Shown piece by piece: positions 9,883 to 58,015 of a stretch of DNA of 64,000 bases (its first letter is position 1; the number at the start of each line of letters is the position of its first letter). The stretch is from Dehalococcoidia bacterium (lineage in GTDB: Bacteria; Chloroflexota; Dehalococcoidia; Lucifugimonadales; UBA3495): assembly GCA_965219925.1 (NCBI GenBank), contig OZ244795.1, positions 1,031,395 through 1,095,394 on the forward strand. Reading direction: 5' to 3'. The notes under the pieces were generated by a model. That model was not told the origin of the DNA. It did not search any database and saw only the letters and a program-made list of their open reading frames with translations. Both the position numbers and the translations under genes were made by a program.

Positions 9883-10397
9883 CTTTGGCCCGACTCCGAA
9901 TCAAGATCCTCGCCCAATGTGGCCAGAAATTGATCCATCTCTTCGTCGGTCAAATCCTCCATATCCGAATCCTGCCCTAAGATCATGTCATCAATCCCGT
10001 CAAGGAGTTCCGCCACAGTTTCGTGATCGTCGCCATCCAAAAGAGCGTTTTTGACAAATGGCAACGCCAATAACAGATGCAACGCGGTTTCGGCGATCCT
10101 GATGGACGCCGGCGCGGCGTCGGGGTCGGAGAGCAGAGCATAAGCTTCAGCCGCCAACTGAGCGTGCTCGTCGCCCGCTTCAGCTCGTTCCAGGATGCTG
10201 TCCACAATCGTCTGGAGAGCGTCTCGCAATTCCGGCGAGGGCTCGCCGCCGATAACCGCTGCCGCCAACAGGGCGCTTTGGTACAAAAACACCAGGTCGG
10301 TGGTGTTATGGCCTGGGTCGGCCATAACACGCTGCGCCAACTCGACTATGTCCGTCGGATCAGCCGAACCATCAAATGTGATGTCGTTGGATACCAT
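9879..10397 (-). CDS. hypothetical acidic protein
   Basis: 172-aa ORF. 4-nt overlap with the downstream FAD oxidoreductase start suggests coupling. No recognisable motif. Confidence 0.5.
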   Translation of the reverse strand: MVSNDITFDGSADPTDIVELAQRVMADPGHNTTDLVFLYQSALLAAAVIGGEPSPELRDALQTIVDSILERAEAGDEHAQLAAEAYALLSDPDAAPASIRIAETALHLLLALPFVKNALLDGDDHETVAELLDGIDDMILGQDSDMEDLTDEEMDQFLATLGEDLDSESGQR

Positions 10398-10452
10398 CCG
10401 AATTTGCTCCTAAAATTGCATCGAGTAGCGCGGCGCGTCTGAGCGTTACCGG

Positions 10453-11511
10453 TCATCCTCTCCGGCCACCCCGACGCGGGCCACGGTTCCGGGAACGTTC
10501 CAGCAGCGTTCGCACCGGCTCGCCCCTCACCGCCTCAATGTCATCCTGGTACTTCAGCATGATGCCCAGCGTATCATCTATGACCTCCGGCTCCAGCTCG
10601 CGCATGTTCAGCGCCATTAGCGCCGAGGTCCAGTCCAGCGTCTCGGAAACACCGGGGATTTTGTACAGCTCGGTATCACGCAGCTCCTGGATGAACGACG
10701 TCACCTGTTGCGCCAATTGGCGCGGCGCATCGGGCAGGCGCGCCGAAACTATCTGCAATTCCTTTTGGTAGTCGGGGTAGTCAACCCAGTAATACAGGCA
10801 CCGGCGTTTCAGCGCGTCGTGCACCTCCCGCGTCCGGTTTGACGTGATGACGACCACCGGCGGGTGAGCCGCCTGGAATGTGCCCAACTCAGGGATGGTG
10901 ATCTGGTAGTCGGCCAGCAGTTCCAGCAGAAATCCCTCAAATTCTTCGTCCGCCCGGTCCAGCTCGTCGATCAGCAGCACCGGCGCCCGGTCGCGTCCCT
11001 GGTCGATGGCTTCCAGCAGGGGCCGCTTGATCAGAAATTGCTGACTGAACAGGTCTATGCCGGCATCGTTGCCATCCCCGTCGCCGCGGCGAGCCTCCAT
11101 CAAACGAATTTCCAGCAGTTGACGGGTGTGGTTCCACTCGTACACGGCGTGGTTTACGTCCAGGCCCTCGTAGCATTGCAGGCGTATCAGGTCGGTTTGC
11201 AACCCCGTTGCCAGCGCCCGGGCGATCTCCGTTTTCCCGACTCCGGCCTCGCCCTCCAGAAACAGCGGTCGTTGCAGTTTCAACGCCAGAAAGATGGCGA
11301 TGGCCAACCCCCGGTCGGTGATGTATGCCTGGTCGCGCAGCAGGTTCTGCACTGCCTCCACGGATTCGGGAGCCGTCGGGCTCGCGTCGGGAACAGTGTG
11401 GTCGGTAGGGGAAATCGTCACTGGGCAACTCCGGGTTTGGGATTCAGGCAACGGAAACCATTGTAGCCCATTTACCCGTTCCTCGCCGTCACGCCAGCCA
11501 ACCCGATACAA
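10453..11511 (-). CDS. MoxR/CoxD-like AAA+ ATPase
   Basis: Walker A GEAGVGKTE, Walker B LLIDELDRADEE, MoxR-type C-terminus. The true start is probably downstream of the ORF-track start (e.g. near VTISPTDH), which would remove the overlap with the next gene. Confidence 0.8.
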   Translation of the reverse strand: MYRVGWRDGEERVNGLQWFPLPESQTRSCPVTISPTDHTVPDASPTAPESVEAVQNLLRDQAYITDRGLAIAIFLALKLQRPLFLEGEAGVGKTEIARALATGLQTDLIRLQCYEGLDVNHAVYEWNHTRQLLEIRLMEARRGDGDGNDAGIDLFSQQFLIKRPLLEAIDQGRDRAPVLLIDELDRADEEFEGFLLELLADYQITIPELGTFQAAHPPVVVITSNRTREVHDALKRRCLYYWVDYPDYQKELQIVSARLPDAPRQLAQQVTSFIQELRDTELYKIPGVSETLDWTSALMALNMRELEPEVIDDTLGIMLKYQDDIEAVRGEPVRTLLERSRNRGPRRGGRRG

Positions 11512-25767: not shown

Positions 25768-25844
25768 GGGCGGTTAGCTCAGTTGGTTAGAGTACTTGCT
25801 CGACACGCAAGAGGTCAGTGGTTCGAGTCCACTACCGCCCACCA
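25768..25844 (+). tRNA. tRNA-Val (anticodon GAC), CCA encoded
   Basis: Manual cloverleaf: acceptor GGGCGGT/ACCGCCC, D arm GCTC-AGTTGGTTA-GAGT, anticodon stem CTTGC/GCAAG with loop TCGACAC, variable AGGTC, T arm AGTGG-TTCGAGT-CCACT, then A-CCA. Confidence 0.85.
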
Positions 25845-27318: not shown

Positions 27319-27542
27319 TTTACCTGAAGTGCGACCCTCCTTGCGGGCCAGACCCCTGCACCAGGCGCGGCGGCAAGATCAGGTGCCGCCTGGACCACCA
27401 TCTGGAGACGGAATTACTGGAGCTGGGCTGGAAGCCGGAATATCTGTTGGATCAACACGGCAACATATTCACGCGATGGCATCCGCCGGTGGGCGTTGTC
27501 CGACTCCGGCCGGACTTGGGCCCGCCGATGCTGGACGTATGA
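27315..27542 (+). CDS. hypothetical phage protein
   Basis: GTG start preceded by AGGAGGGGAC. GTGA overlap with the previous stop. Confidence 0.4.
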   Translation: MIYLKCDPPCGPDPCTRRGGKIRCRLDHHLETELLELGWKPEYLLDQHGNIFTRWHPPVGVVRLRPDLGPPMLDV

Positions 27543-29293
27543 AGGCAATGAACCACGCTGACCCCCTCCACGGCTGGCTCGACCGTATCCACCAGGGCGA
27601 CGCGCTGGAGGTGATGAGCCAAATGCCTGACGAGTGCGTCAACGTGGTGGTGACGTCGCCGCCCTACAACCTGCTCAATTCCAGCGGGAACGGGATGCGG
27701 AACAACCAGCAGGGGAAATGGCGCGGCCCCCGGGCCAAGGCGTTGTCCCAGGGCTACCCGGAGCATTCCGACGATATTCCCCGCAGCGAATACATCGACT
27801 GGCAGCGCCAGTGCCTAGAGGAGATGCTGCGCATCCTCACCAACGACGGCGCCATCTTCTACATCCACCGGGGGCGTATGCAAAAGGGCGTGGAGGAAAG
27901 CCCCCGCGACATCCTCAATGGTCTGTTCCTTCGACAGGAGATCATCTGGGCCAAGCCCGGCGGCATCAACCACACGCCCTATGCGATGACGCCGACTCAC
28001 GAGAGCGTCTTTCTGATCGTCAAAGACCCGTCAAGCGCCGGCTACCGACGACGCGAGGGCAGCGTGGACTACGGCTCTGTTTGGGCGATCAGCCGCGATA
28101 CGAAGGCTGATCACCCTTGCCCATTCCCGGTCGAACTGGCCCGACGCTGTATCCAGATGGTCACCGGGCCAGTGGCGCTGGACCCGTTCGTCGGCAGCGG
28201 CACCACCGCGGTTGCCGCCGTCCAGGAGGGCCGCGACTATATCGGCATCGACCTGAACGCCAAATACTGCAAATCCGCCCGGAAGAGGGTGCAGCTGGCC
28301 CGCCTGGACGACGATCTGAACCCGAATGCGGATAGCGACGAAGAGGGCTGGAAGGACTTCCAGGCCCACGGATTTGATACTCAATGGGATGCTTCGCAAG
28401 GTTCGCAAGGTTCGCAATCGGATGCTTCGCAAGGTTCGCAATCGGATGCTTCGCAAGGTTCGCAATCGGATGCTTCGCAAGGTTGGATGCGAGTAGCAGT
28501 CCGCTGGGATCACATCGACAGAGCCGTCTATGACCGCATAGCCGAAACGCAAAAGGCGACGAAACTCCAGGCCGTTCCCCTCAACCAACAAGAAATAGCA
28601 AATGAGTTGGATTGCAGCCCGCGCACCGTCAATAACGCTATTTCCAAACTCAAAAAAGAGGGTGCGCTCACTGTAAAATACCAGCGAGGGCCTAGCCTTT
28701 ACTCCGTATCATCAGAGATACCGCGGTGGCCTGTTCGCATCTCGGGGGGCCTTGGCACCCTCCCGCAAGGTTCGCAATCGGATGCTTCGCAAGGTTCGCA
28801 ATCGGATGCTTCGCAAGGTTCGCAATCGGATGCTTCGCATACCCGGGTCCGGGACCGGGAACCGGGGTTAATTAACCAAGTTAATCTCCGTGAGATTAAC
28901 CCGGTTCCCGGTCCCGGAGTCCCGGCGCGCGCGCGAGAAGACGCCGGCGCACGCCACGTTGCGCCGGACGCCGCGGTCTGCCCTTTGCACACGCAGGTCC
29001 ACCTCCAGGTTGTGACCACCTACCGTCCGCTGGTGGCCATCATGCAGGCCACCGGCGACGAGATCCGCTATTGCTACGGATCCAACGGCAGGTGCAGCTG
29101 GGTGCACTCCCGCGAACTCGGCATGGTGGTTGCCGCCGGCGGTCGCCGCCTCGATGCCCTGGGCATCGAGGCGGCTTACTACGACCTCCGATCTGACGCC
29201 CAGCCTGCCGCCGGTAGCAACAAGGACACCAGCCGCACCGGCTACCTGGACAGCTACCGCCGCCGCCACGGGAGGCTCCCGTGGGAAGGATAA
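27539..29293 (+). CDS. beta-class DNA methyltransferase (SPPY, N4-C-like) fused to repeat-flanked winged-HTH and C-terminal domain
   Basis: Motif IV VVTSPPYNL precedes motif I LDPFVGSGTTAVAA (PF01555-like order). Then a DASQGSQS repeat, QQEIANELDCSPRTVNNAISKLKKEGAL HTH, a second DASQGSQS repeat, and a C-terminal ~150 aa. Confidence 0.8.
   Translation: MKAMNHADPLHGWLDRIHQGDALEVMSQMPDECVNVVVTSPPYNLLNSSGNGMRNNQQGKWRGPRAKALSQGYPEHSDDIPRSEYIDWQRQCLEEMLRILTNDGAIFYIHRGRMQKGVEESPRDILNGLFLRQEIIWAKPGGINHTPYAMTPTHESVFLIVKDPSSAGYRRREGSVDYGSVWAISRDTKADHPCPFPVELARRCIQMVTGPVALDPFVGSGTTAVAAVQEGRDYIGIDLNAKYCKSARKRVQLARLDDDLNPNADSDEEGWKDFQAHGFDTQWDASQGSQGSQSDASQGSQSDASQGSQSDASQGWMRVAVRWDHIDRAVYDRIAETQKATKLQAVPLNQQEIANELDCSPRTVNNAISKLKKEGALTVKYQRGPSLYSVSSEIPRWPVRISGGLGTLPQGSQSDASQGSQSDASQGSQSDASHTRVRDREPGLINQVNLREINPVPGPGVPARAREDAGARHVAPDAAVCPLHTQVHLQVVTTYRPLVAIMQATGDEIRYCYGSNGRCSWVHSRELGMVVAAGGRRLDALGIEAAYYDLRSDAQPAAGSNKDTSRTGYLDSYRRRHGRLPWEG
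28388..28484 (+). repeat. 24-bp tandem repeat array 1 (iteron-like)
   Basis: GATGCTTCGCAAGGTTCGCAATCG, about 3.7 copies, with an extra GGTTCGCAA in the first unit. The complete units (28421-28444, 28445-28468) are identical and the other copies carry no substitutions. Confidence 0.9.
28764..28839 (+). repeat. 24-bp tandem repeat array 2 (iteron-like)
   Basis: Same unit as array 1, about 3 copies, with no substitutions relative to array 1. Confidence 0.9.
28842..28925. repeat. large dyad symmetry with AT-rich core
   Basis: CCGGGACCGGGAACCGGGGTTAAT (28849-28872) / ATTAACCCGGTTCCCGGTCCCGG (28895-28917) around TTAATTAACCAAGTTAATCT. Confidence 0.85.
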
Positions 29294-30594: not shown

Positions 30595-31497
30595 ATGACG
30601 CCCATCACCCAGCTGGCATTGGACGTGGCGATGAAGAAGTTCATCGCGGTGCGGCTCGCCGTGGGCGTGAGGGCGCCGGGCATCGCGCAATACCACTGGG
30701 CATTCAACAAGATACGCGCTTGCGAGTACCGGCTGCCCACCACCCTGGACGTGCTGCTGCCGGCCCTGATGGAGGGCAACCTGAGCCGGGAATCGCGGCG
30801 GTCCCTGGTGAAGTGTTGGCGGGCCTTCTTCCGCTTCGTGGAGGAGGAGTACGGCCTGCCGTCGCCGATCCGGAGACTGCCGTCCCTGCCCGGGGCGACG
30901 CCGTTGCCGCGGGTGCTGACAGCCCGGGAAATAACTGCGCTGGTGGGCTCCTGCCGGTTCCAGCGGAACCTGCTGGCGATCCTGACGCTACTGGACACCG
31001 GGGTCCGGATCGGCGAGTTGCACAGCATGAGGAAGGGGGACATCGACGGGACCGCGCTCACCGTGCGGGGCAAGACCGACACCAGGGTGACCGTCATATC
31101 GCCGGAGATCGCCGAAGCCCTGGAGGGAATCGGGGACGACACCCACTACTGGGTCGGGCAGCGGGGCCCGCTCACCGTGTCCGGACTGCAGCAGGTCGTC
31201 AAGCGGGCGTTCCGGGCGGCGGGCATCGCCGCGGGCAAGCAGAAGAATGGCCCCCACACGCTCCGCCATACCTTCGCAACCCAGTACCTGCGCGGCGGGG
31301 GCGGGATCTTCCAGCTGAAGGAGCTCATGGGACACGCCAGCCTGCGGTCGACGATGATCTACGTGCACCTGGCGGCCCGGGACCTGGACGCCGACCACCT
31401 GATCCACTCCCCGGCGCGGACGCTGGGTCTGATCGACGACCTGGTCAGGTCGGAGCCGCTGCCGGAGTTCTACCGGCCGACCAGGAAAGCAGCCTGA
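30595..31497 (+). CDS. tyrosine recombinase (phage integrase family), internal copy
   Basis: 300 aa. LLDTGVRIGEL (Arg I), HTLRHTFAT (H-x-x-R), LMGHASLRSTMIYVH (catalytic Tyr). Confidence 0.85.
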   Translation: MTPITQLALDVAMKKFIAVRLAVGVRAPGIAQYHWAFNKIRACEYRLPTTLDVLLPALMEGNLSRESRRSLVKCWRAFFRFVEEEYGLPSPIRRLPSLPGATPLPRVLTAREITALVGSCRFQRNLLAILTLLDTGVRIGELHSMRKGDIDGTALTVRGKTDTRVTVISPEIAEALEGIGDDTHYWVGQRGPLTVSGLQQVVKRAFRAAGIAAGKQKNGPHTLRHTFATQYLRGGGGIFQLKELMGHASLRSTMIYVHLAARDLDADHLIHSPARTLGLIDDLVRSEPLPEFYRPTRKAA

Positions 31498-31513: not shown

Positions 31514-31777
31514 ATGACCACCATCCACACCACCCGTGGGCGAGCAACCGGAACGTGCATGCACTGCGGCGCCGAGCAACCCGACCATGAGCTGGCGATC
31601 TACCATTCACGGGAGGACCTCAGCTGGTGGTGCACCTGCGAGGACTGCCACGCCAAGGCCCGGGTCCTGGTCCAGTGGTGGCAGCTGATCAGACTGTCCG
31701 AGCTCAGGACCGGGACCGCCTTCCCCTGGTGGTGGAAGCACCGCGGTGTCCGACTAATCTATACGACAAAGGAGTGA
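31514..31777 (+). CDS. hypothetical Cys-containing phage protein
   Basis: 87 aa. AGGAGG RBS. Confidence 0.45.
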   Translation: MTTIHTTRGRATGTCMHCGAEQPDHELAIYHSREDLSWWCTCEDCHAKARVLVQWWQLIRLSELRTGTAFPWWWKHRGVRLIYTTKE

Positions 31778-31788
31778 GTGATTTTGCC

Positions 31789-33576
31789 ATGAAAACCAGA
31801 GAACGGATCGACCTGGCGTCGATCGACGACAACCCCTGGCAGCCGCGGGTGGACATGGACCCGGACGGGGTCGCAGAGATGGCTGACAGCATCCACCAAC
31901 TGGGGTTGCTGCAGGCGCCCCTGGGACGTCGGCACCCCGAGGTGAGCGGGCGGATCCAGCTGGCGTTCGGCCACCGCCGGGTTGCGGGCTGCCGGCTGCT
32001 CCACCAGCAGGGCCGCGGCGAACCCCACGTCGAGATGGACGTGGCCGAAATCAGCGACGAGGGCATGGTCGTCCTGGCCCTGACCGAAAATGAACTACGC
32101 AAGCAGCTGAGCCAGATTGAAGTGGTGCGGGCCCACTACCGGGCGGTCAATGAGACCCAGCTGACCGTCCAGGCGCTGGCCGACCAGCTGGGGATCGACC
32201 GTTCCACGTTGAGCAACAACTTGCGGGTCCTGGACCTGCCCGACTTTGTGCTGGAACACGTGGAGAGCGGCGACCTCAAGATGTACGCGGCCAGGGAGTT
32301 CCTTGTGCTGCAGAATGCCGACCACGCCCACATTGAGGATATGCAGGACGTGGTCCAAGGGATCGTTAGCACGCACGGGCGAAAGGGTGCTCCGGACTGG
32401 AGCCGCCGCCACGTCCGGCGGTTAATTGCAAACAGAGTGTCCTACAACGAAGGGGACTTCCGGCCCCTGGGACCGCGGCCCATACACCATCACAGTGGCG
32501 CTTCCCGTGAGGCAACCTTCGACACCGCCACCTTTGCCCAGCAACTGCCCGACACGCTGCATACGATCCCGGCCGCCAACTCCCTGGACGAACATTACGA
32601 ATTGCAATGTGACTCATCACGGGTCTGGACCTGCGCGGTGAGGGAATGGCGCCGGCGGCAGACCAGAGCCACGAGGGAGGCCACCAAGGAATCCGCGGCC
32701 ACCGGCGGGAACTCTGCCGCGGCGCCACCTAAGAGCGCCAGCCGGGACAAGCATTTTGAGGTGGTGATGGCCAAGGACCCGGTCTTCAAGCAGGTGGCCG
32801 CTGCCCGTGAAAAGAAGGGTCCGAGTCGGCCGGTCAACGACGACGAACGGGCGCAGCTCGGCACCAGGGCGGACCTGCGGGACGTGAGTGGCAACACCGC
32901 CTTCTGGAAGATTCTGGAAAAGGGGAATCTGGATGGCCGTCAGAATAAATACGCCTGGAGTCGGGAAGGAGGAGGGCCGGTACCGCCGTGGTTCCCCGAC
33001 CTGGACGAGTGCATGCGGTGCACCATTGGAGCTGCGTATGCGAAGTCCCGCGACGGCTACACCCTGCGCGATGTCACGCTGGTCTGCATGAACCGGGAGC
33101 ACTACCAGCAGAAACTGAACCTGGGAGAGGCCGCCTACCGGGGCACATTGCAGTCGCAAGAGGAGGAGATTGACCGCCAGGACGCCAAGTCGGTCAAACA
33201 CCTGATGCGGCAGCTGGAACCCCTGACCGACGACGCCTGCCTGGTGCTGGCTGCCTCGCTGGTCGCCGCCAACCCCGCGCTGGCCTGGACCAATCCGCTG
33301 GGGTTCTACGACGAGGACTGGAGCCACGAGTCAGGGCTGGGCGAAATGGTGAGCGACCTGCTGGGCTCGGAATCCCTGGTTCCCACCTGGAACGGTCGGG
33401 AAGGGTACGGCCCGGTCATCAACGCCGACTCCATCTCAGCCCTGTCGGGGGATGGCGCCCGTAAGTTGACCGCCGCCCTGATGACCCATCACCTGCGGCT
33501 GGCGGGCAAGTTCGACACCGTTTCCCAGGGAAACGGCCACCTGACGGAGCCGGCGACTGTGGGGGCAGGAGAATAA
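31789..33576 (+). CDS. ParB N-terminal-domain (ParB/Srx) protein with HTH and long C-terminal extension
   Basis: IDDNPWQPR, LLQAPLGR, AFGHRRVAGCR (GxxRxxA-like), then VQALADQLGIDRSTLSNNLRVL HTH, then about 400 aa of unknown function. Confidence 0.75.
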   Translation: MKTRERIDLASIDDNPWQPRVDMDPDGVAEMADSIHQLGLLQAPLGRRHPEVSGRIQLAFGHRRVAGCRLLHQQGRGEPHVEMDVAEISDEGMVVLALTENELRKQLSQIEVVRAHYRAVNETQLTVQALADQLGIDRSTLSNNLRVLDLPDFVLEHVESGDLKMYAAREFLVLQNADHAHIEDMQDVVQGIVSTHGRKGAPDWSRRHVRRLIANRVSYNEGDFRPLGPRPIHHHSGASREATFDTATFAQQLPDTLHTIPAANSLDEHYELQCDSSRVWTCAVREWRRRQTRATREATKESAATGGNSAAAPPKSASRDKHFEVVMAKDPVFKQVAAAREKKGPSRPVNDDERAQLGTRADLRDVSGNTAFWKILEKGNLDGRQNKYAWSREGGGPVPPWFPDLDECMRCTIGAAYAKSRDGYTLRDVTLVCMNREHYQQKLNLGEAAYRGTLQSQEEEIDRQDAKSVKHLMRQLEPLTDDACLVLAASLVAANPALAWTNPLGFYDEDWSHESGLGEMVSDLLGSESLVPTWNGREGYGPVINADSISALSGDGARKLTAALMTHHLRLAGKFDTVSQGNGHLTEPATVGAGE

Positions 33577-33578
33577 CC

Positions 33579-33917
33579 ATGGCAAGCAAACTTGAAGCGG
33601 ATCTGATGGCGGCCGGTTATACGCCGGAGCCACTACACTGCGATGACGTGGCCATCTGGACGGGCTGGCGCGCGCCGGAGGATGATCGGCTGGGAGCGGA
33701 AACAACGCCGTCCACCTACGAACGCTATTACGACCTCATCACCGACGCCATGTACGCTCAGATGGACGATTCGCCCTGGGATCGGGAGCACCATCCCTGT
33801 CGGGGAAGCGTGGGGGGCCGTTGCCCCGTCCTGTCGTCCTGGGTGACCGAGTACCGCGCCGTGCTCGATTGCTGGCACAGCATGTCTGAGGCGCCACCCG
33901 CTCCGGAGGGCCGCTGA
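33579..33917 (+). CDS. hypothetical phage protein
   Basis: 112-aa ORF. Confidence 0.5.
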   Translation: MASKLEADLMAAGYTPEPLHCDDVAIWTGWRAPEDDRLGAETTPSTYERYYDLITDAMYAQMDDSPWDREHHPCRGSVGGRCPVLSSWVTEYRAVLDCWHSMSEAPPAPEGR

Positions 33918-34264
33918 TGAACGCTAACGGCGTTATTTGCCACCGGTGTCTGGCTTCGCCGGGGCAGTTGTGCACGGAGGTATCTCTGCACGGGACCCAG
34001 CAGTTGAAGCAGGTCCACCCTGAGCGGGAAAACCTGGCCAGGCTGGGCCCTTGCACTCATTGTGGGGCAGCTGTCGGCGAACCCTGTTTCCACAAGAAGA
34101 AAGGGATTTTGCTATATGAGCACTGGTCGCGGATGGAATGCCTCGCCGTCCGATGCGATTGGTGCCGAGCCTTGCCAGGAAACCTGTGTCTCGATGCGGC
34201 AGGGAAGGTTCGCGGTCCCCACAAATGCCGAGTAGATGCTGGGAAAGCCGCCGGAGCCCGCTGA
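33917..34264 (+). CDS. Cys-rich hypothetical phage protein
   Basis: 115 aa. Three repeats of a C...C...HxxR-like module. ATGA coupling. Confidence 0.45.
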   Translation: MNANGVICHRCLASPGQLCTEVSLHGTQQLKQVHPERENLARLGPCTHCGAAVGEPCFHKKKGILLYEHWSRMECLAVRCDWCRALPGNLCLDAAGKVRGPHKCRVDAGKAAGAR

Positions 34265-34512
34265 TGGCTTCCACCGCCGCTATCGACAAACTACGCCGCC
34301 GCGTCGTCGACCGACAGGACGGTCTATGCCTGCGCTGCGGGCAACCACTGGGCGATGACGCGCACGTGGCGACGATCCGGCCGATCGGCAAGGGCGGCAC
34401 GGTCGACGCCGGCAACCTGGTGGCCACGCACTGGCTCTGCAGCATCGAGCCGGACCTGGCGCATACCAGCCGGGTGCCTGATTGCAGTTGCTGGTTTTGC
34501 ATTGCACCATAG
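34264..34512 (+). CDS. HNH-like (degenerate) small nuclease-fold protein
   Basis: CLRCGQPLGDDAHVATIRPIGKGGTVDAGNLVATHWLC resembles C-x-x-C ... H ... N ... H. TGATG coupling. Confidence 0.4.
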   Translation: MASTAAIDKLRRRVVDRQDGLCLRCGQPLGDDAHVATIRPIGKGGTVDAGNLVATHWLCSIEPDLAHTSRVPDCSCWFCIAP

Positions 34513-34612
34513 ATTGGGGCGGAGCAGGACGCGGAGGTGAACCCATGTTGAAAGTGCGGCGAGGGGTGTACCATCGTGTTCGGCGGCGACGGGACCGTAG
34601 AGGTCCTCTACG

Positions 34613-34632
34613 GGTTCCGTTTGAATTTGCGG
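34613..34632. repeat. left arm of perfect 20-bp inverted repeat
   Basis: GGTTCCGTTTGAATTTGCGG, the exact reverse complement of 34834-34853. Confidence 0.9.
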
Positions 34633-34663
34633 GGCAGGAAAGTAAAGACGGAGGAAACAGCAA

Positions 34664-34819
34664 ATGAAAGCCCAAATCACCATTGATTTAGTAGAAGGCT
34701 GGTTTGATGACCCCACGGCTATCACCATAGAGGAGGTGCAAGAGATGGTGATGGATGACCCCAAAGGAATTCTGGAAGATGCCGATTGGGCAATCGTAGC
34801 AGACGAGGAAACTGAATAA
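34664..34819 (+). CDS. 51-aa highly acidic protein (below ORF-track cutoff)
   Basis: GACGGAGGAAACAGCAA RBS region before the ATG. MKAQITIDLVEGWFDDPTAITIEEVQEMVMDDPKGILEDADWAIVADEETE. AT-rich segment. Confidence 0.45.
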   Translation: MKAQITIDLVEGWFDDPTAITIEEVQEMVMDDPKGILEDADWAIVADEETE

Positions 34820-34833
34820 ATCTCCCTACTGCA

Positions 34834-34853
34834 CCGCAAATTCAAACGGAACC
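34834..34853. repeat. right arm of perfect 20-bp inverted repeat
   Basis: CCGCAAATTCAAACGGAACC. Confidence 0.9.
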
Positions 34854-34907
34854 CCTCTGCGACTGCAATTTGTATGTGGAATGCGTCTGCAAGGTTGAAA
34901 CGGAGGA

Positions 34908-35387
34908 ATGACAATGCTGGAACAGAATGATCTGCGTGGCGCGCGGTGCTACCGCGTTTGGGACCGGGAACTGGCGGAGGCGTTCGACGGCCCACCGCTA
35001 CGGGCTGTTGAGGAGGATCGCGCCGTCCAGCTGTGGCTGCAGCGCCAGGGGTGGCGCCTGCAATTCGACCCCACGGACATCGTGGTCAACGACTTCATGG
35101 TGGTCCACCCCGAGGTTAATGGCGACATGGTTACGAGGGTGTTCGTCGAGAGCGCCGAGGAATGGGACCGCATTGATCACGACGGTTTCCGCGCCGGAGC
35201 GCCGGACGAGTTCGATGCGCTGCACTTCATGCGCAAGCGCCGCGGCGGCGATGGCGTTCACGTCGCGGTAGTGGTGGTCAACCGGGACACCGGAGCGGCG
35301 TACGTGGAGATATTCACCCCGCAGCAGTTGAACGACGCAGCCCGGGCCGAGCCGACAACGGCTGGGCGTAGGCGCAGCAGCAGGTGA
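34908..35387 (+). CDS. hypothetical phage protein
   Basis: 159-aa ORF. GGAGGAATGACA before the ATG. Confidence 0.5.
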   Translation: MTMLEQNDLRGARCYRVWDRELAEAFDGPPLRAVEEDRAVQLWLQRQGWRLQFDPTDIVVNDFMVVHPEVNGDMVTRVFVESAEEWDRIDHDGFRAGAPDEFDALHFMRKRRGGDGVHVAVVVVNRDTGAAYVEIFTPQQLNDAARAEPTTAGRRRSSR

Positions 35388-35402
35388 GGTGTAGCGAGCG
35401 CG

Positions 35403-36062
35403 TCATAGCAACCTGCCTGCCTCAGTTTCCGCTGGAACTTGGTCCCCCCACGCATCGAACCCCTCAATCCGTCTGCGAGCGAACATATCTAGCCGGGGAG
35501 AAGGCGTAACCCTTCTCAGTAGGGCGTATAGGCCGTCAGGTTTCGTGCAATTGGCAATCTGCCGGCCCCAAGCACCAGGCGCGGCATTGGGGTTGCGGGG
35601 CGCATCCCAAAGGTTCGCCGTCCGAAAATCCTTTGTGTCTAAGAATTTAGGCCGACCCTGCCGCCCGACGATGATCGGCTCCATGTTGTAAATCGGGTAG
35701 CCTACTGGCTTTGGCCCATGCGGTTTGACCCAGGCCATCATGCACATGTATTCCAATCGCCACGAATCCAGCAGGTCAAACGCCGGACGCACAAAACGAT
35801 TGATCACCCATAAGAACACCAGCGCGTCCGGTTCCAGCAGGGACGGAATATCAAGGGCTTGCAATCCGGCCAAGCTCATCAACGGGTAATCGAAATCCTG
35901 GTGGGCCGCTTTTTTATGGCACCAATGGCCCGTGCCGCTGGTGCCACCCCGACAGCAACCAGCGGCAGGCCCCTCCACCCAGGTTGATTTCGGGAAGCCC
36001 GCAGACTTCCAGGGCGGGTCGATCACGACGGTAGCGTATTTTGCATCTGGCAACGGTATCAT
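35403..36062 (-). CDS. MT-A70-family N6-adenine DNA methyltransferase
   Basis: VVIDPPWKS (DPPW motif IV), LVFLWV, YMCMMAWVKP blocks typical of MT-A70/IME4-like phage methylases. Confidence 0.8.
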   Translation of the reverse strand: MIPLPDAKYATVVIDPPWKSAGFPKSTWVEGPAAGCCRGGTSGTGHWCHKKAAHQDFDYPLMSLAGLQALDIPSLLEPDALVFLWVINRFVRPAFDLLDSWRLEYMCMMAWVKPHGPKPVGYPIYNMEPIIVGRQGRPKFLDTKDFRTANLWDAPRNPNAAPGAWGRQIANCTKPDGLYALLRRVTPSPRLDMFARRRIEGFDAWGDQVPAETEAGRLL

Positions 36063-36126
36063 GTGCAGTTATCTTGGTAATGCCCATTGCTTGCACGTCG
36101 CCGACAGGTCATAGCAGCCGGATTTG

Positions 36127-37320
36127 TCAAATGATCACCTCGCAGCGTCGATCGACGGAGTACTGCCCGGTGAGCTCACCCACCAACCCGTCGGTCTGGG
36201 GCTCCACGAACGCCACCTCGGGCCCGTTTTCGCCCACCACGACGAAGGCATTGAAGGCGTGCACGTCGCCGGCGACGACGGCGCAGCAGTTGTAGCCGTG
36301 GTCGCGAATCAGGTTGGAGCGCAGGGTGAGCGCGAAGTCGTCGCAGTCGTAGTTGCGGCCGCCGCTGTCCCGGATGTACTGCCGCTGGTCAACGGGATTG
36401 GCGGCCAGGTACCGCGCCATCGCCTCGCGGCTGATGGCAACGATGCGCGAGTCCATGGTGGTGCCGCTGAACAGCCGGACATCCCGCCCCAGGGCGGACT
36501 CCAGCGCCGGCATCACCTCGTGGGGCTCGTAGGCGTGGGCGCCGTCGTGGACGCTCCACTGCACCTGCGCTTCCTCGTCGTCGCTGTCGTGCACTTCCCG
36601 TGGCTGTGGCGCCGGCATGGGCGGTGTGACCGGGTCCGGAACCGGCGGCCCTTCCTGCGTGTCCAGGAAGTAGTTCCGCAGGAGGTAGAGCTGCGAACGC
36701 ATTATGCAGCGACGCGTCGGGCTGTAGGAGCCCTCCTGCGACTCCTCGACGATCTCGGGGTTGGTGGTCTCGACGACGTCGAGGAAGTCCTCTACCTCTG
36801 GATAGAACTGGCGCCAGAAGGCGACGATGTTGACGTTGTTGCGGCGACACCAGTAGCGGATCACCACGTGCTGGTTGGGGTCGAACTCGTCGACCTGCCA
36901 GGCGTAGGACATGCGCTCCGGCGCCTTCATCCAGCCATGCCGCAAGCCCATCCAGTCAGACGGCACCATTTCCGCGGTGATGTCGCGAAGCTTGCGCTCG
37001 GTGACGTAGTCATCGTAGGAGCGCCCGTCGCCCCGGTTGCACGCCACCGCCAGCTGCTGGCCCTGCCACGTCATGTCGGCGGTGGGACCGCCCATCGAGG
37101 ACCCGCCGCCGCCGCTGCCGTCGACGGAGATGCCGAACACTATGATGGGCAGGGGCGTGCGCTTCACCGGCGGCCAATCCGGACAGTCGACGGGGAATAC
37201 ATCGAGGCCGGCCTTCTTGACTCGTTTCACGTATTCGGCGACCTCGCGGTCCTGGTGGATGCAGCGCTGGTGCGCCTCGTCCCTGAGCAGGATATGGTGT
37301 GTGGCGTCGTAAGCGGTCAT
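36127..37320 (-). CDS. hypothetical phage protein with C-terminal papain-like Cys-His pattern
   Basis: 397 aa. C-terminal NYDCDDFALTLRSNL ... DVHAFNAFVVV ... VEPQTD resembles transglutaminase-like/CHAP-type cysteine peptidase folds (inference only). Confidence 0.55.
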   Translation of the reverse strand: MTAYDATHHILLRDEAHQRCIHQDREVAEYVKRVKKAGLDVFPVDCPDWPPVKRTPLPIIVFGISVDGSGGGGSSMGGPTADMTWQGQQLAVACNRGDGRSYDDYVTERKLRDITAEMVPSDWMGLRHGWMKAPERMSYAWQVDEFDPNQHVVIRYWCRRNNVNIVAFWRQFYPEVEDFLDVVETTNPEIVEESQEGSYSPTRRCIMRSQLYLLRNYFLDTQEGPPVPDPVTPPMPAPQPREVHDSDDEEAQVQWSVHDGAHAYEPHEVMPALESALGRDVRLFSGTTMDSRIVAISREAMARYLAANPVDQRQYIRDSGGRNYDCDDFALTLRSNLIRDHGYNCCAVVAGDVHAFNAFVVVGENGPEVAFVEPQTDGLVGELTGQYSVDRRCEVII

Positions 37321-52726: not shown

Positions 52727-54085
52727 CTACCCCACCAGCCACCGGCGCGCGCGGGAATCGGGGTCCGGCTGCGCCACCACCCGCTCGCCGTCGAACGCGG
52801 ACCTGGTCCGCAGCCGCATCTCGCACAACCGGGCGGTCTGCACCACGATCCGCTTGCCGCCGTTCGGCAGATCCTCGGTGGTCGTCACGCTACCGGCGTT
52901 CGCCCAACCGGCCGTCACCCCGCGCACCAGGCCGGCGTTCAGCTTGGAGAGGAAGTTCTCGGCGTAGGTGGTGTTCGGCAGTTTGCGCCCCACGAACTCC
53001 AGGGCTTCGTCCGTATCCCGGAGCCGGAGGTTGCCCGCGATGGTGGAAGCCAGCACGTCGTCATAGGAATTTCCGGCCAGCAGCATGATCTCGCCGGCCA
53101 GGCTGTCGGTCAGCGAGCCGGGCAGGAACCGCACGTACTCGCCCCGGGCCATGCTCACCACGCCGTCCACGCCGTAGGGCAGGCTGCCCGCCACCCGGGT
53201 GCCGTCGACCTGGCGCAGCTCGGTCGCCTCGGGCGGGAACTCGACGAAGTTGATCTCGGCGTTGTCCTCGTCGTAGCTGCAGCCGTCCGCTTCGGCAGCC
53301 GTGACCAGATCGCCGACCGGCACGTCCAGCAGCTCGGCCAGCCCGCTCAGGCGCGGCATTGGCGGGCAGTTGATGACGCCGCTCAGGATGCCGCCGATGG
53401 TCGACGCCGTAATCCCCGCGGCCTCTCCCAGCTGCGCGTTGGTCAGTTCCTGTTCGTCCCGCAACCGCCGCAGGAGGTTGCCCAGCTGCTCGCCCCGCTG
53501 CCCGGCGTGGCCGCCGGCGCCGCAACCGGCGCAGCGCGCCTCGGGCTGCCAGAGACGGTGTTCAAGCTGCTGGTAGGCGGGCACCTGCTCCGCGTAGCGC
53601 AGGTAGTCGCTCCAGTTGCGGATCTGCAGCCCGCTGTCCGGATAGGCCGGCCGGTCCACGACCCCCCAGCCGTAGAGCCTGGCCTGCATCACCTCGCGCA
53701 CCTGGTTGACGACGCGTTCCGCCAGGACGCGGAACTCCAGCGACAGCCCGCGCAGCAGTCCGATCCGCACCTCGGTGTCGGTGGTTCGGCCCCAGATGGT
53801 TTCGGGCAGCACGACCTGGCCCCGCAGGTCCACCTCGGAGTCGGCCACCGAGAGGCCGGAGCCGGTGCGCGCCAGGGGCTGATCTCGGTTGTGCATCCGG
53901 TTCGCCATCAGGTCGAGGGCGGCCAGGTCGGCGCCGAACGCGCCCGGCATGATCCGCTCCCGGCCCCAGGGGAACACGGCCTCGTCGCCGTAGCGCACCA
54001 CGACGCCGTCGACGGTGCCCAGGGCGCCGTCCGCGGCGCGGTGTTCCAGCTCGCCGTAGCGGTATTCGGAGATGTGCTCAGGCAT
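52727..54085 (-). CDS. HK97-family (S78) prohead protease, duplicated domain with internal XRE-type HTH
   Basis: The N-terminal domain has VVVRYGDEAVF..ERIMPGAFG, MHNRDQPLAR (His), GLSLEFRV (Ser) and VVDRPAYPDS. The middle has LGNLLRRLRDEQELTNAQLGEAAGITASTIGGILSG. The C-terminal part repeats the protease layout with the catalytic positions replaced. Confidence 0.75.
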   Translation of the reverse strand: MPEHISEYRYGELEHRAADGALGTVDGVVVRYGDEAVFPWGRERIMPGAFGADLAALDLMANRMHNRDQPLARTGSGLSVADSEVDLRGQVVLPETIWGRTTDTEVRIGLLRGLSLEFRVLAERVVNQVREVMQARLYGWGVVDRPAYPDSGLQIRNWSDYLRYAEQVPAYQQLEHRLWQPEARCAGCGAGGHAGQRGEQLGNLLRRLRDEQELTNAQLGEAAGITASTIGGILSGVINCPPMPRLSGLAELLDVPVGDLVTAAEADGCSYDEDNAEINFVEFPPEATELRQVDGTRVAGSLPYGVDGVVSMARGEYVRFLPGSLTDSLAGEIMLLAGNSYDDVLASTIAGNLRLRDTDEALEFVGRKLPNTTYAENFLSKLNAGLVRGVTAGWANAGSVTTTEDLPNGGKRIVVQTARLCEMRLRTRSAFDGERVVAQPDPDSRARRWLVG

Positions 54086-57082: not shown

Positions 57083-58015
57083 ATGACCGATCCCAGTCTC
57101 ATCGAACGTTACCGCTTCTACCTGGCCAATGCCCGACGCTTGGCGGATAACACCGTCCAGGCCTACGCCGGCGACGTGGGCCGGTTCCTGGCCTGGATGG
57201 AAGCCACCGGCGCCGCCGTGGACGACATGGGGCCCCTGCTCCTGGGAAACTACGTCTATCACCTCAGCAAGGCAGGCAAACGACGCTCCACTCTCAAGCG
57301 CAACGTCGCCGCGGTCCGCAGTTTCTACTACTTCTTGGCGTCGGTCGACGGTCGGTTCCGGAAGTCGCCGGTGCCTGATGCCCGCGATTACCCGATGAAC
57401 ATGGAGGATCGGAAACCCCGGTGGATCGGCCCAGCCGAAGCCACGCGCCTGATGGACGCCGCCGATGACGCCACCCCGTGCGGCCTTCGCGATCGCGCCC
57501 TCCTGGAGATGATGTACGCGTCCGGCGTGCGGTTGGCCGAAGCCCACGGCATGGACCTCGCCCACGTTGCCCGGTTGAACAGCAAAGTCCTGGTGCACGG
57601 CAAGGGCGGCAAGAAACGGGAAGTGCTCTACGGCGCCGACGCGGACCGCGCCCTGCGCCGCTACCTCGCGCATGGCCGACCGGCGCTCCTGGTCGATCCC
57701 AGGCAACCGGCGCTCTGGCTCAACCGCTACGGCGGCCGGCTGTCCCGCCAGTCGATCACCGCCGTCGTTAGGTGTTACGCCGATAAGGCCGGCCTGAGCT
57801 CCCGCGTCCACCCCCACGTCATTCGCCATTCTTTCGCCACGGCCATGCTCGAGGGCGGCGCGGACCTCAGGGTTATCCAGCATCTGATGGGGCACAGCAG
57901 CGTGGCCACCACACAGATCTACGCCCACGTCACCAAGAAAGAGGCGCGGCAGGCCTACCTGGAACATCACCCGATGGCCAGACCACCGGCGCCCAGGCTG
58001 GTAATCAGGGCCTGA
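57083..58015 (+). CDS. XerC/XerD-like tyrosine recombinase, probable prophage integrase
   Basis: 310 aa. N-terminal SAM-like core-binding domain (NTVQAYAGDVGRFLAWM), RDRALLEMMYASGVRLAE, HVIRHSFAT, LMGHSSVATTQIYAHV. 312 bp from attR. Confidence 0.85.
   Translation: MTDPSLIERYRFYLANARRLADNTVQAYAGDVGRFLAWMEATGAAVDDMGPLLLGNYVYHLSKAGKRRSTLKRNVAAVRSFYYFLASVDGRFRKSPVPDARDYPMNMEDRKPRWIGPAEATRLMDAADDATPCGLRDRALLEMMYASGVRLAEAHGMDLAHVARLNSKVLVHGKGGKKREVLYGADADRALRRYLAHGRPALLVDPRQPALWLNRYGGRLSRQSITAVVRCYADKAGLSSRVHPHVIRHSFATAMLEGGADLRVIQHLMGHSSVATTQIYAHVTKKEARQAYLEHHPMARPPAPRLVIRA

What the first reader, a model, noticed from the sequence alone, without database searches (positions are those of the whole stretch)
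34613..34853. AT-rich mini-cassette flanked by a perfect 20-bp inverted repeat and encoding a 51-aa hyper-acidic protein
GGTTCCGTTTGAATTTGCGG (34613-34632) is the exact reverse complement of 34834-34853. The 201 bp between the arms are clearly AT-richer than the surrounding prophage. They contain one well-signalled ORF (34664-34819) that is too short for the supplied track. About one third of its residues are Asp/Glu (MKAQITIDLVEGWFDDPTAITIEEVQEMVMDDPKGILEDADWAIVADEETE). I see three readings. (a) It is an invertible segment (inverton) flipped by one of the two tyrosine recombinases. (b) It is a MITE-like moron carrying a DNA-mimic or anti-defence-type acidic protein. (c) It is a long-range RNA stem that occludes the ORF. 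None of these is explained by standard annotation.
Basis: seen in the sequence. Interest (0 to 1): 0.65.

Follow-up and report, generated by a model that had tools for sequence, protein, structure and literature searches.

The report
Tiny gene-carrying transposon in a prophage
The 241-bp AT-rich segment is a miniature transposon that has no transposase of its own, jumped into a small prophage gene, and carries a 51-residue acidic phage protein of unknown function; this is a known kind of element, but the family is undescribed.

Summary
Window 34613-34853 is bounded by a perfect 20-nt inverted repeat (26 nt with one mismatch). It has 47.7% GC inside a 64% GC prophage and holds a 51-aa acidic ORF with a GGAGG ribosome-binding site.

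It is a non-autonomous transposable element, a very small "mobile insertion cassette". Three findings show this.
- The arms are flanked by an 8-bp direct repeat, CCTCTACG / CCTCTGCG.
- Four related phages (L103, L104, L105, L108) read straight through the site with one copy of (A/C)CTCTGCG. There the site lies inside an intact 50-51-aa Cys-rich gene, which the element split in the window.
- A 91%-identical unit sits in an unrelated 528-kb contig (L002) inside a 780-bp element. That element has the same arms, a perfect 8-bp duplication (CAAGTTCG) and two extra captured ORFs. A decayed copy lies in a 30% GC replicon (L005).

The ORF belongs to a tiny family of small acidic phage proteins. More distant members sit in ordinary operons without repeats. 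Its function is unknown, and an anti-defence role is untested.

No cognate transposase was found. The arm tips resemble IS6-family ends only in part. The inverton and RNA-stem readings are not supported.

It is a new member of a known kind, of moderate interest.

The parts
34605..34612 (+). Left copy of the 8-bp target-site duplication (CCTCTACG; one G>A change relative to the target CCTCTGCG)
   Evidence: Sequence. Empty-site alignment A3 and L108 show a single CCTCTGCG in related phages.
34613..34637 (+). Left terminal inverted repeat. The core is 34613-34632, GGTTCCGTTTGAATTTGCGG; pairing with the right arm continues to 34637 with one mismatch.
   Evidence: The same arm is in L002 (9950-9969), and in L005 with 2 changes.
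34650..34654 (+). Shine-Dalgarno sequence GGAGG, 9 nt upstream of the ATG
   Evidence: Sequence. It is conserved in the L002 and L005 copies.
34664..34819 (+). Passenger ORF: a 51-aa acidic protein (16 Asp/Glu, 2 Lys/Arg) of a small family of phage proteins
   Evidence: Among distant homologues dS is saturated while dN is only 0.15-0.42, which indicates purifying selection. The AF2 model is beta-alpha-alpha-beta with pLDDT 73.8.
34829..34853 (-). Right terminal inverted repeat (core 34834-34853)
34854..34861 (+). Right copy of the 8-bp target-site duplication (CCTCTGCG)
34552..34612 (+). 5' fragment of the interrupted small Cys-rich gene (...KCGEGCTIVFGGDGTVEVLY). In this lineage it already has no ATG start; a stop lies at 34549-34551.
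   Evidence: The gene is intact in L103, L104, L105 and L108.
34854..34911 (+). 3' fragment of the interrupted Cys-rich gene (...LCDCNLYVECVCKVETEE*). Its stop codon overlaps the ATG of the downstream 159-aa gene.

Best explanation
Window 34613-34853 is a 241-bp non-autonomous transposable element with terminal inverted repeats. It is best described as a miniature mobile insertion cassette, that is, a MITE-sized element carrying one passenger gene.

Inferred mechanism: a DDE-type transposase encoded elsewhere binds the ~20-nt ends (GGTTCCGTTTGnnTTTGCGG). It joins them to a target cut with an 8-bp stagger, and repair duplicates the 8 bp.

Shown: in the window lineage the element landed in CCTCTGCG inside a 50-aa Cys-rich gene of the prophage's early region and split that gene.

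The passenger is a 51-aa acidic protein with its own ribosome-binding site and no detectable promoter. It is probably expressed by read-through from the surrounding co-oriented operon (inferred). It comes from a small family of phage proteins that normally sit in ordinary operons.

My best guess for the protein, at low confidence (~0.2), is that it binds and blocks a basic or nucleic-acid-binding partner, as small acidic phage inhibitors do.

The arms will also form a 22-26-bp duplex in any transcript that crosses the element, a possible RNase III substrate. I regard this as a by-product.
For: - **Ends and duplication.** The element has a perfect 20-nt repeat, 26 nt with one mismatch. An 8-bp direct repeat lies directly outside it and matches at 7 of 8 positions. 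The chance of that at a fixed junction is 3.8e-4.
- **Empty sites.** Phages with 84-93% identical neighbouring genes (L103, L104, L105, L108) run uninterrupted through ...GAGGT(A/C)CTCTGCGACTGCAATTT... with one copy of the 8-mer. The window and L004 carry 249 extra bp, which is 241 plus 8.
- **Second independent insertion.** In L002 the left arm (9950) and an outer right arm (10710-10729, 2 mismatches) are flanked by a perfect CAAGTTCG / CAAGTTCG. The chance is 1.5e-5. The two duplications differ in sequence, which rules out a fixed attachment site. The separately assembled contig L003 shows the same arm layout.
- **Sharp homology boundaries.** Similarity between the window and L002 (91.3% over the unit) starts and stops at the arms, and the flanks are unrelated.
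- **Third context.** L005 is a 29.5% GC replicon. It holds the left arm, 5' UTR and ORF at 88% identity, but the ATG and the right arm are lost.
- **No transposase.** The only sizeable ORF in the element encodes a 51-aa acidic protein.
- **The passenger is a real gene.** Six homologues exist, and L009 and L010 lack flanking repeats. Among distant homologues dS is saturated while dN is only 0.15-0.42, so the family is under purifying selection.
Against: - No autonomous element with these ends and no further copies were found. I searched GTDB representative genomes, IMG/VR, JGI metagenomes, GenBank phages and PLSDB plasmids.
- All copies come from a few ENA/Logan assemblies, apparently of one project, and I could not scan those assemblies in full.
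- The left duplication copy has one mismatch.
- Between element-borne copies dN/dS is 0.24-0.72 on very few changes. The passenger may therefore be under relaxed selection there. The L005 copy has lost its start codon.
- Nothing here shows transcription, translation or any activity of the protein.
Confidence: 0.9

Rival explanations
1. Invertible segment (inverton): a tyrosine or serine recombinase flips 34633-34833 between the two arms and switches the small ORF on or off relative to the operon.
For: A long perfect inverted repeat flanks a short segment. Tyrosine recombinase genes lie at 30595-31497 and 57083-58015.
Against: The segment is absent, with a single copy of the duplicated 8-mer, in four related phages. 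The same unit with different 8-bp duplications sits in unrelated replicons. There is no promoter-like site inside or around it. The orientation is the same in the window and in the independent contig L004. The recombinases are 3 kb and 22 kb away, and both look like ordinary integrase or Xer-type genes.
Confidence: 0.03
2. The inverted repeat is selected as a long-range RNA duplex. It would be an RNase III processing site or stabiliser that excises or regulates a mini-mRNA for the 51-aa ORF, rather than a pair of transposon ends.
For: - The arms pair in the predicted MFE and centroid structures. The fold is -88 kcal/mol, z = -3.5.
- The L002 unit keeps most of the pairing, including a U.G wobble.
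- One double change keeps complementarity: window CAG/CTG, L002 CAA/TTG.
Against: - The SD and AUG lie in the loop, so nothing is occluded.
- Distant homologues of the ORF have no such repeats, so the gene does not need the stem.
- The target duplications and empty sites are not explained by an RNA element.
- The outer right arm of L002 shares only the 20-nt core. That fits a protein-binding end better than a co-evolving helix.
- The single double change is equally expected for two ends recognised by one transposase.
- No Rfam family matches.
Confidence: 0.05
3. A moron cassette moved by homologous or illegitimate recombination between phages. The inverted repeat would be a relic, for example of a palindromic junction, with no transposition involved.
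For: Phage accessory regions are mosaic. The window lineage shares a replaced 5' flank with L106. The composition is foreign to each host replicon.
Against: Two independent insertions have exact element boundaries at the arm tips. Each has its own 8-bp direct duplication of target sequence. This is the signature of staggered-cut transposition, not of recombination.
Confidence: 0.02

Closest known systems
Mobile insertion cassettes (MIC231 of the Bacillus cereus group; Chen et al. 1999, as summarised in PMC6199540)
   Same: Two IS-type inverted repeats flank one or more passenger coding sequences. No transposase gene is present, and mobilisation in trans is presumed. L002 shows passenger content varying between copies (1 ORF against 3).
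   Different: Described MICs are about 0.7-3 kb, and the window copy is 241 bp. The ends are unrelated to IS231/IS4. The cognate IS is unknown. The host replicon is a prophage.
IS6/IS26-family insertion sequences and their two known MITEs (227 and 336 bp; PMC7986276)
   Same: They share an 8-bp target duplication, short perfect 15-20-bp ends, a GG tip and a MITE of similar size. The first 9 nt of the L005 arm (GGTTCTGTT) equal the IS1216/IS257-type end ggttctgttgcaaagtt.
   Different: The conserved 'caaa' motif is replaced by GAAT/GGTT. The window and L002 copies have CCGTT instead of the fully conserved TGT. No IS6 transposase partner was found. Other families with 8-bp duplications and GG tips (ISL3, IS1595, ISH6, IS256, IS1; recalled from memory, not tested) remain possible.
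MITEs in prokaryotic viruses (vMITEs; PMC11602168)
   Same: It is a small non-autonomous TIR element sitting in a phage genome. MITEs shared between replicons can link viruses to hosts.
   Different: MITEs are defined there as non-coding and are mostly intergenic. Their GC tracks the host genome. This element codes for a conserved protein, interrupts a gene, and occurs at 88-91% identity in replicons of 30%, 61% and 64% GC.
Mycobacteriophage mobile elements MPME1/MPME2 (PMC3029335)
   Same: They are ultra-small phage-borne mobile elements with inverted repeats and one small ORF. They were recognised by comparing near-identical phages with and without the insertion.
   Different: MPMEs are 439 bp and add an unexplained 6-bp sequence at IR-L rather than a target duplication. 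There is no sequence similarity.

Membership tests
Non-autonomous TIR transposon (MITE / mobile insertion cassette) | Terminal inverted repeats at both ends | tested here: met
   Perfect over 20 nt, 26 nt with 1 mismatch. The same arms are in L002, L003 and L004, and the left arm is in L005.
Non-autonomous TIR transposon (MITE / mobile insertion cassette) | Direct target-site duplication of fixed length whose sequence differs between insertions | tested here: met
   Window CCTCTACG / CCTCTGCG (7 of 8). L002 CAAGTTCG / CAAGTTCG (8 of 8).
Non-autonomous TIR transposon (MITE / mobile insertion cassette) | Empty (pre-insertion) site in related genomes | tested here: met
   L103, L104, L105 (alignment A3) and L108 have one copy of the 8-mer and no element.
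Non-autonomous TIR transposon (MITE / mobile insertion cassette) | No transposase gene inside | tested here: met
   The element is 241 bp. Its only sizeable ORF encodes a 51-aa acidic protein with no family match.
Non-autonomous TIR transposon (MITE / mobile insertion cassette) | Copies in unrelated genomic contexts | tested here: met
   Three contexts: the window/L004 prophage, the L002/L003 528-kb contig and the L005-L007 424-kb AT-rich contig.
Non-autonomous TIR transposon (MITE / mobile insertion cassette) | Passenger coding sequence between the ends (this separates a MIC from a strict non-coding MITE) | tested here: met
   The ORF is conserved in six homologues under purifying selection. 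The L002 copy carries two more ORFs.
Non-autonomous TIR transposon (MITE / mobile insertion cassette) | A cognate autonomous IS with matching ends that supplies the transposase | tested here: inconclusive
   None was found in the window, the fetched loci, GTDB genomes, IMG/VR, JGI metagenomes, GenBank phages or PLSDB. The source assemblies could not be scanned whole.
IS6/IS26 family derivative | 8-bp direct target repeats | tested here: met
   family trait from PMC7986276.
IS6/IS26 family derivative | Short (15-20 bp) ends with a GG tip | tested here: met
   The conserved core is 20 nt and starts with GG.
IS6/IS26 family derivative | Internal cTGTt motif (TGT fully conserved) | tested here: inconclusive
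   The L005 copy has CTGTT. The window and L002 copies have CCGTT.
IS6/IS26 family derivative | Internal 'caaa' motif | tested here: not met
   The arms read ...GTTTGAATTT / ...GTTTGGTTTT.
IS6/IS26 family derivative | Mobilised by an IS6-type DDE transposase | not testable with these tools
   No partner was located, and proving it needs an experiment.
Inverton (phase-variable invertible segment) | Both orientations present in a population | not testable with these tools
   No reads are available. The two independent assemblies (window, L004) have the same orientation.
Inverton (phase-variable invertible segment) | Promoter or other orientation-dependent signal inside, with a dedicated invertase next to it | tested here: not met
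   No promoter-like site lies in 33500-36200. The nearest recombinase gene is 3 kb away.
Mycobacteriophage mobile elements (MPME) | An element of about 439 bp with an extra 6-bp insertion at IR-L instead of a target duplication | tested here: not met
   This element is 241 bp with an 8-bp duplication. MPME traits are from PMC3029335.

The most novel reading that the evidence does not exclude
The 51-aa acidic protein is a phage counter-defence or host-takeover inhibitor that has been packaged as a transposable mini-cassette. The transposon would spread it between phages, megaplasmids and a very AT-rich giant replicon that share a host or community. The cassette can also grow by capturing neighbouring small genes, as in the 780-bp L002 form. 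That would make TIR mini-cassettes a vehicle for exchanging phage accessory genes. It would also make shared cassettes a marker linking otherwise unassignable replicons to one host.
Probability: 0.12. Interest if true: 0.7.

Novelty: new member of a known kind. Interest (0 to 1): 0.4.

Why it matters
Transposable elements are rare in phage genomes, and MITEs are usually treated as non-coding. This is a clean case with both filled and empty sites. A 241-bp element moves a complete, conserved small phage gene, disrupts another small gene on arrival, and in a sister copy has grown to carry three genes.

It shows one concrete route, transposition rather than recombination, by which "morons" can enter phage genomes.

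It also ties a 64% GC prophage, a 61% GC 528-kb circular contig and a 30% GC 424-kb circular contig to one mobile-element pool. That link may indicate a shared host.

It does not reveal a new mechanism.

Tried and rejected
- **Exact and degenerate arm searches.**
  - GTDB genomes gave one single-arm hit inside a coding region of a Phototrophicaceae MAG.
  - IMG/VR gave 0 exact and 3 degenerate single hits.
  - JGI metagenomes gave 89 single hits.
  - A script found no inverted partner within 5 mismatches in any of them.
  - The best extensions lie inside coding sequence: L080 in an M23-peptidase-like ORF and L096 in a repetitive ORF.
  - All are consistent with chance, by my own rough estimate of tens of chance hits for a 35-bit pattern.
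- **blastn of the element.** GenBank phages gave nothing. PLSDB gave one 24-nt hit inside an intact gamma-glutamyltransferase gene, which I take as chance.
- **Protein function.**
  - Pfam, PHROGs and PADLOC gave nothing for the window protein. Homologue P0008 gave only two marginal hits.
  - The PDB sequence profile gave nothing.
  - The AF2 model gave no Foldseek match with E < 1 in PDB or BFVD.
  - Two large proteins hit in the representative search (P0006, P0007) are a low-complexity protein and a HEAT-repeat protein. I rejected both as spurious.
- **Known RNA families.** None at gathering scores or at E <= 1.
- **Upstream similarity.** I first suspected that homology between the window and L002 continued upstream of the left arm (GG...L.FG). 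The empty-site reconstructions show that the two flanks belong to unrelated genes.
- **IS family assignment.** The IS6 lead was checked against the family review and is only partly met. A remembered ISL3-type end could not be verified in the paper library.
- **Origin of the two extra L002 passengers.** They have no relatives in any sequence held.

Full report
**1. The observation**

The 20-mer GGTTCCGTTTGAATTTGCGG lies at 34613-34632, and its exact reverse complement at 34834-34853. None of 100 dinucleotide shuffles of the window gave two matches. The repeat finder extends the arms to 26 nt with one mismatch, 34612-34637 / 34829-34854.

The element has 47.7% GC, and the surrounding prophage region has 64.4%. 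The ORF at 34664-34819 is present. GGAGG at 34650-34654 lies 9 nt before its ATG. The product has 16 Asp/Glu and 2 Lys/Arg in 51 residues.

**2.

An 8-bp direct repeat lies immediately outside the arms: CCTCTACG (34605-34612) and CCTCTGCG (34854-34861), matching at 7 of 8 positions. The chance of at least 7 of 8 at a fixed junction is 3.8e-4.

**3. The same unit in other contexts**

The protein has very few relatives. There are six clusters among billions of proteins. Fetching their contigs gave three kinds of context.

- **L004.** This 16.9-kb contig from another sample is the same phage, and its element is 100% identical.
- **L002/L003.** L002 is a 528-kb contig with 61% GC. Similarity to the window (91.3% over the unit) starts exactly at the left arm and ends at the right arm, and the flanks are unrelated.
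  - A mismatch-tolerant search then showed that L002 has three arms. These are the left arm (9950-9969), a degraded inner right arm (10171-10190, 3 changes) and an outer right arm (10710-10729, 2 changes).
  - The left arm and the outer right arm are flanked by a perfect 8-bp direct repeat, CAAGTTCG, at 9942-9949 and 10730-10737.
  - The L002 element is therefore 780 bp. It holds the 241-bp unit plus 519 bp of 58% GC DNA with two further small Cys-rich ORFs.
  - Removing the element and one repeat copy restores a host ORF ending ...RARMLKFGTATDG*.
  - L003, a separately assembled Logan contig, shows the same arm layout.
- **L005-L007.** L005 is a 424-kb circular contig with 29.5% GC. It holds the left arm, the 5' UTR and the ORF at 88% identity to the window. 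Its ATG has become GCG, and similarity stops just after the stop codon with no right arm. This is a decaying copy.

The more distant homologues (L009, L010; 50-53% identity) are ordinary small genes packed into operons, with no flanking repeat.

**4. Empty sites**

Homologues of the downstream 159-aa protein led to related phages. L103, L104 and L105 have neighbouring genes 92-93% identical to the window's, and L108 is 84% identical. All four read ...GACCG(C/T)AGAGGT(A/C)CTCTGCGACTGCAATTTGTATG... without interruption and with one copy of the 8-mer. The window and L004 have 249 extra bases, which is 241 plus 8 (alignment A3).

In those phages the site lies inside an intact 50-51-aa Cys-rich gene, MTEVNNECRCGCGDDCEECRTIVFGGDGT.EVLCDCNLY.EC.C.VETEE. 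The element therefore split this gene in the window. The two fragments are 34552-34612 and 34854-34911.

In the window/L106 lineage the 5' part of the gene had already been replaced and has no ATG. The left duplication copy carries one G>A change relative to the target.

**5. Interpretation**

The evidence is:
- terminal inverted repeats;
- 8-bp duplications that differ in sequence between two independent insertions;
- exact empty sites;
- no internal transposase;
- copies in unrelated replicons.

Together these define a non-autonomous transposon. [quoted passage not shown] It does not fit a strict non-coding MITE (PMC11602168). The window copy, at 241 bp, is well below the 0.7-3 kb quoted for such cassettes. 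The 780-bp L002 copy falls within that range and shows how the family gains passengers.

The steps from trans-acting transposase, through an 8-bp staggered cut, to repair are inferred from established transposon biology. Only their footprints are shown here.

**6. Which IS family?**

The IS6 family makes 8-bp duplications and has 15-20-bp ends with a GG tip plus cTGTt and caaa motifs. It also has two known MITEs of 227 and 336 bp (PMC7986276). The IS1216-type end is ggttctgttgcaaagtt (PMC2920175).

The L005 arm starts GGTTCTGTT, identical over 9 nt. The window and L002 arms have CCGTT, and 'caaa' is absent in all copies. Membership is therefore not established. Other families with GG tips and 8-bp duplications, recalled from memory, remain open. 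No partner IS was found in any collection I could search.

**7. The passenger protein**

Among distant homologues synonymous sites are saturated while dN is only 0.15-0.42, so the family is under purifying selection. Between element-borne copies dN/dS is 0.24-0.72, based on few changes.

All members are acidic, with 14-17 Asp/Glu and 2-3 Lys/Arg. F14, D15, D16, P17, T21, E23, E24, Q26, E27, D32, L37, A40, W42 and I44 are invariant. AlphaFold2 gives a beta-alpha-alpha-beta model with mean pLDDT 73.8.

Nothing above marginal significance matched in Pfam, PHROGs, PADLOC, PDB sequences, PDB folds or BFVD folds. An inhibitor or DNA-mimic role is a guess from charge and genomic setting only.

No promoter-like site lies nearby. 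In all three contexts the ORF points the same way as the surrounding genes. Read-through expression is therefore the likely mode (inferred).

**8. Rival readings**

- **Inverton.** It is contradicted by the empty sites and duplications, by the lack of a promoter, and by the same orientation in two assemblies.
- **Occluding RNA stem.** The arms do pair in silico (-88 kcal/mol, z = -3.5), but the SD and AUG are in the loop, and distant homologues manage without arms. One double change keeps complementarity (window CAG/CTG, L002 CAA/TTG). That fits either a helix or two ends read by one transposase. Cleavage of the duplex by RNase III is a plausible side effect.
- **Known RNA family.** None matches.

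**9. Context**

The element lies in the early or accessory region of a prophage. In order, the region holds:
- tRNA-Val at 25768;
- N6/N4 methyltransferase at 27329-29293;
- tyrosine integrase at 30595-31497;
- ParB-like protein at 31627-33576;
- zinc-finger protein at 33917-34264;
- HNH-like ORF ending at 34512;
- the element;
- the 159-aa gene;
- MT-A70 methyltransferase at 35403-36062, on the minus strand;
- portal and large terminase beyond that.

**10. Novelty and score**

MITEs in phages, mobile insertion cassettes and ultra-small phage mobile elements (MPMEs; PMC3029335) are all known. What is new is this family: its very small coding form, the visible capture of extra genes, and its presence at 88-91% identity in replicons of 30%, 61% and 64% GC. 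The published survey reports that MITE GC tracks host GC, so that spread is unusual.

I rate it a new member of a known kind, interest 0.4.

Noticed in passing
window 34552-34612 and 34854-34911; intact copies at L103:2846-2998, L105:2846-2998, L108:2352-2507: This is a conserved 50-51-aa protein with about 10 Cys residues (MTEVNNECRCGCGDDCEECRTIVFGGDGT.EVLCDCNLY.EC.C.VETEE). Its stop overlaps the start of the 159-aa gene, and it has no Pfam or PHROG match. The window lineage and L106 have lost its 5' part, and L106 also has a 24-nt internal deletion.
   Followed up: partly
L002:9950-10729: This 780-bp version of the element has a degraded internal right arm. It carries two extra passengers: a CxxC...CxxC zinc-ribbon-like ORF (10177/10201-10440) and a Cys-rich ORF of about 74 aa (10443-10667). 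Neither has relatives in any sequence held or in PHROGs or PADLOC.
   Followed up: partly
L005 (ENA ERZ25072670 ctg256099_221x_c, 424 kb circular) and L002 (ctg256258_31x_c, 528 kb circular): These are two large circular contigs from one sample, with almost no Pfam-annotated genes in the stretches fetched. One has 29.5% GC at 221x coverage and a TnpB-like fragment. The other has 61% GC and a Cas3-like gene. What they are (giant phage, megaplasmid or something else), and whether they share a host with the window genome, is open.
   Followed up: no
window 34595-34613: A perfect 8-bp hairpin, CCGTAGAG-GTC-CTCTACGG, abuts the left arm. It is perfect only because of the G>A change in the left duplication copy. 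In the empty sites the corresponding stem is weaker.
   Followed up: partly
L107:3001-3024 (Ketogulonicigenium robustum plasmid NZ_CP019938.1), L080:1898-1919, L001:962-981: Exact matches of 20-24 nt to the arm lie inside unrelated coding sequence: a gamma-glutamyltransferase gene, an M23-peptidase-like ORF and an ORF of a Phototrophicaceae MAG. Each is a single arm with no partner. I take them as chance, although a 24-nt match at E = 0.06 is borderline.
   Followed up: partly
window 52727-54085 (- strand): One 452-aa ORF matches a Caudovirus prohead serine protease (residues 13-155) and also a Cro/C1-type HTH domain (200-260). This is either an unusual fusion or two genes merged by the mechanical ORF call.
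   Followed up: no
L023, L031, L045-L047, L053, L054, L056, L073, L078, L079, L082, L087, L088, L090, L091 and others: Many marine metagenome contigs share GCCCAGAA(C/G)AGGTTCTGTTTGATTTTGCGCAT. On the opposite strand this is the start of a conserved gene (MRKIKQNLFWA...). It explains a good part of the degenerate-pattern hits and is unrelated to the element.
   Followed up: no
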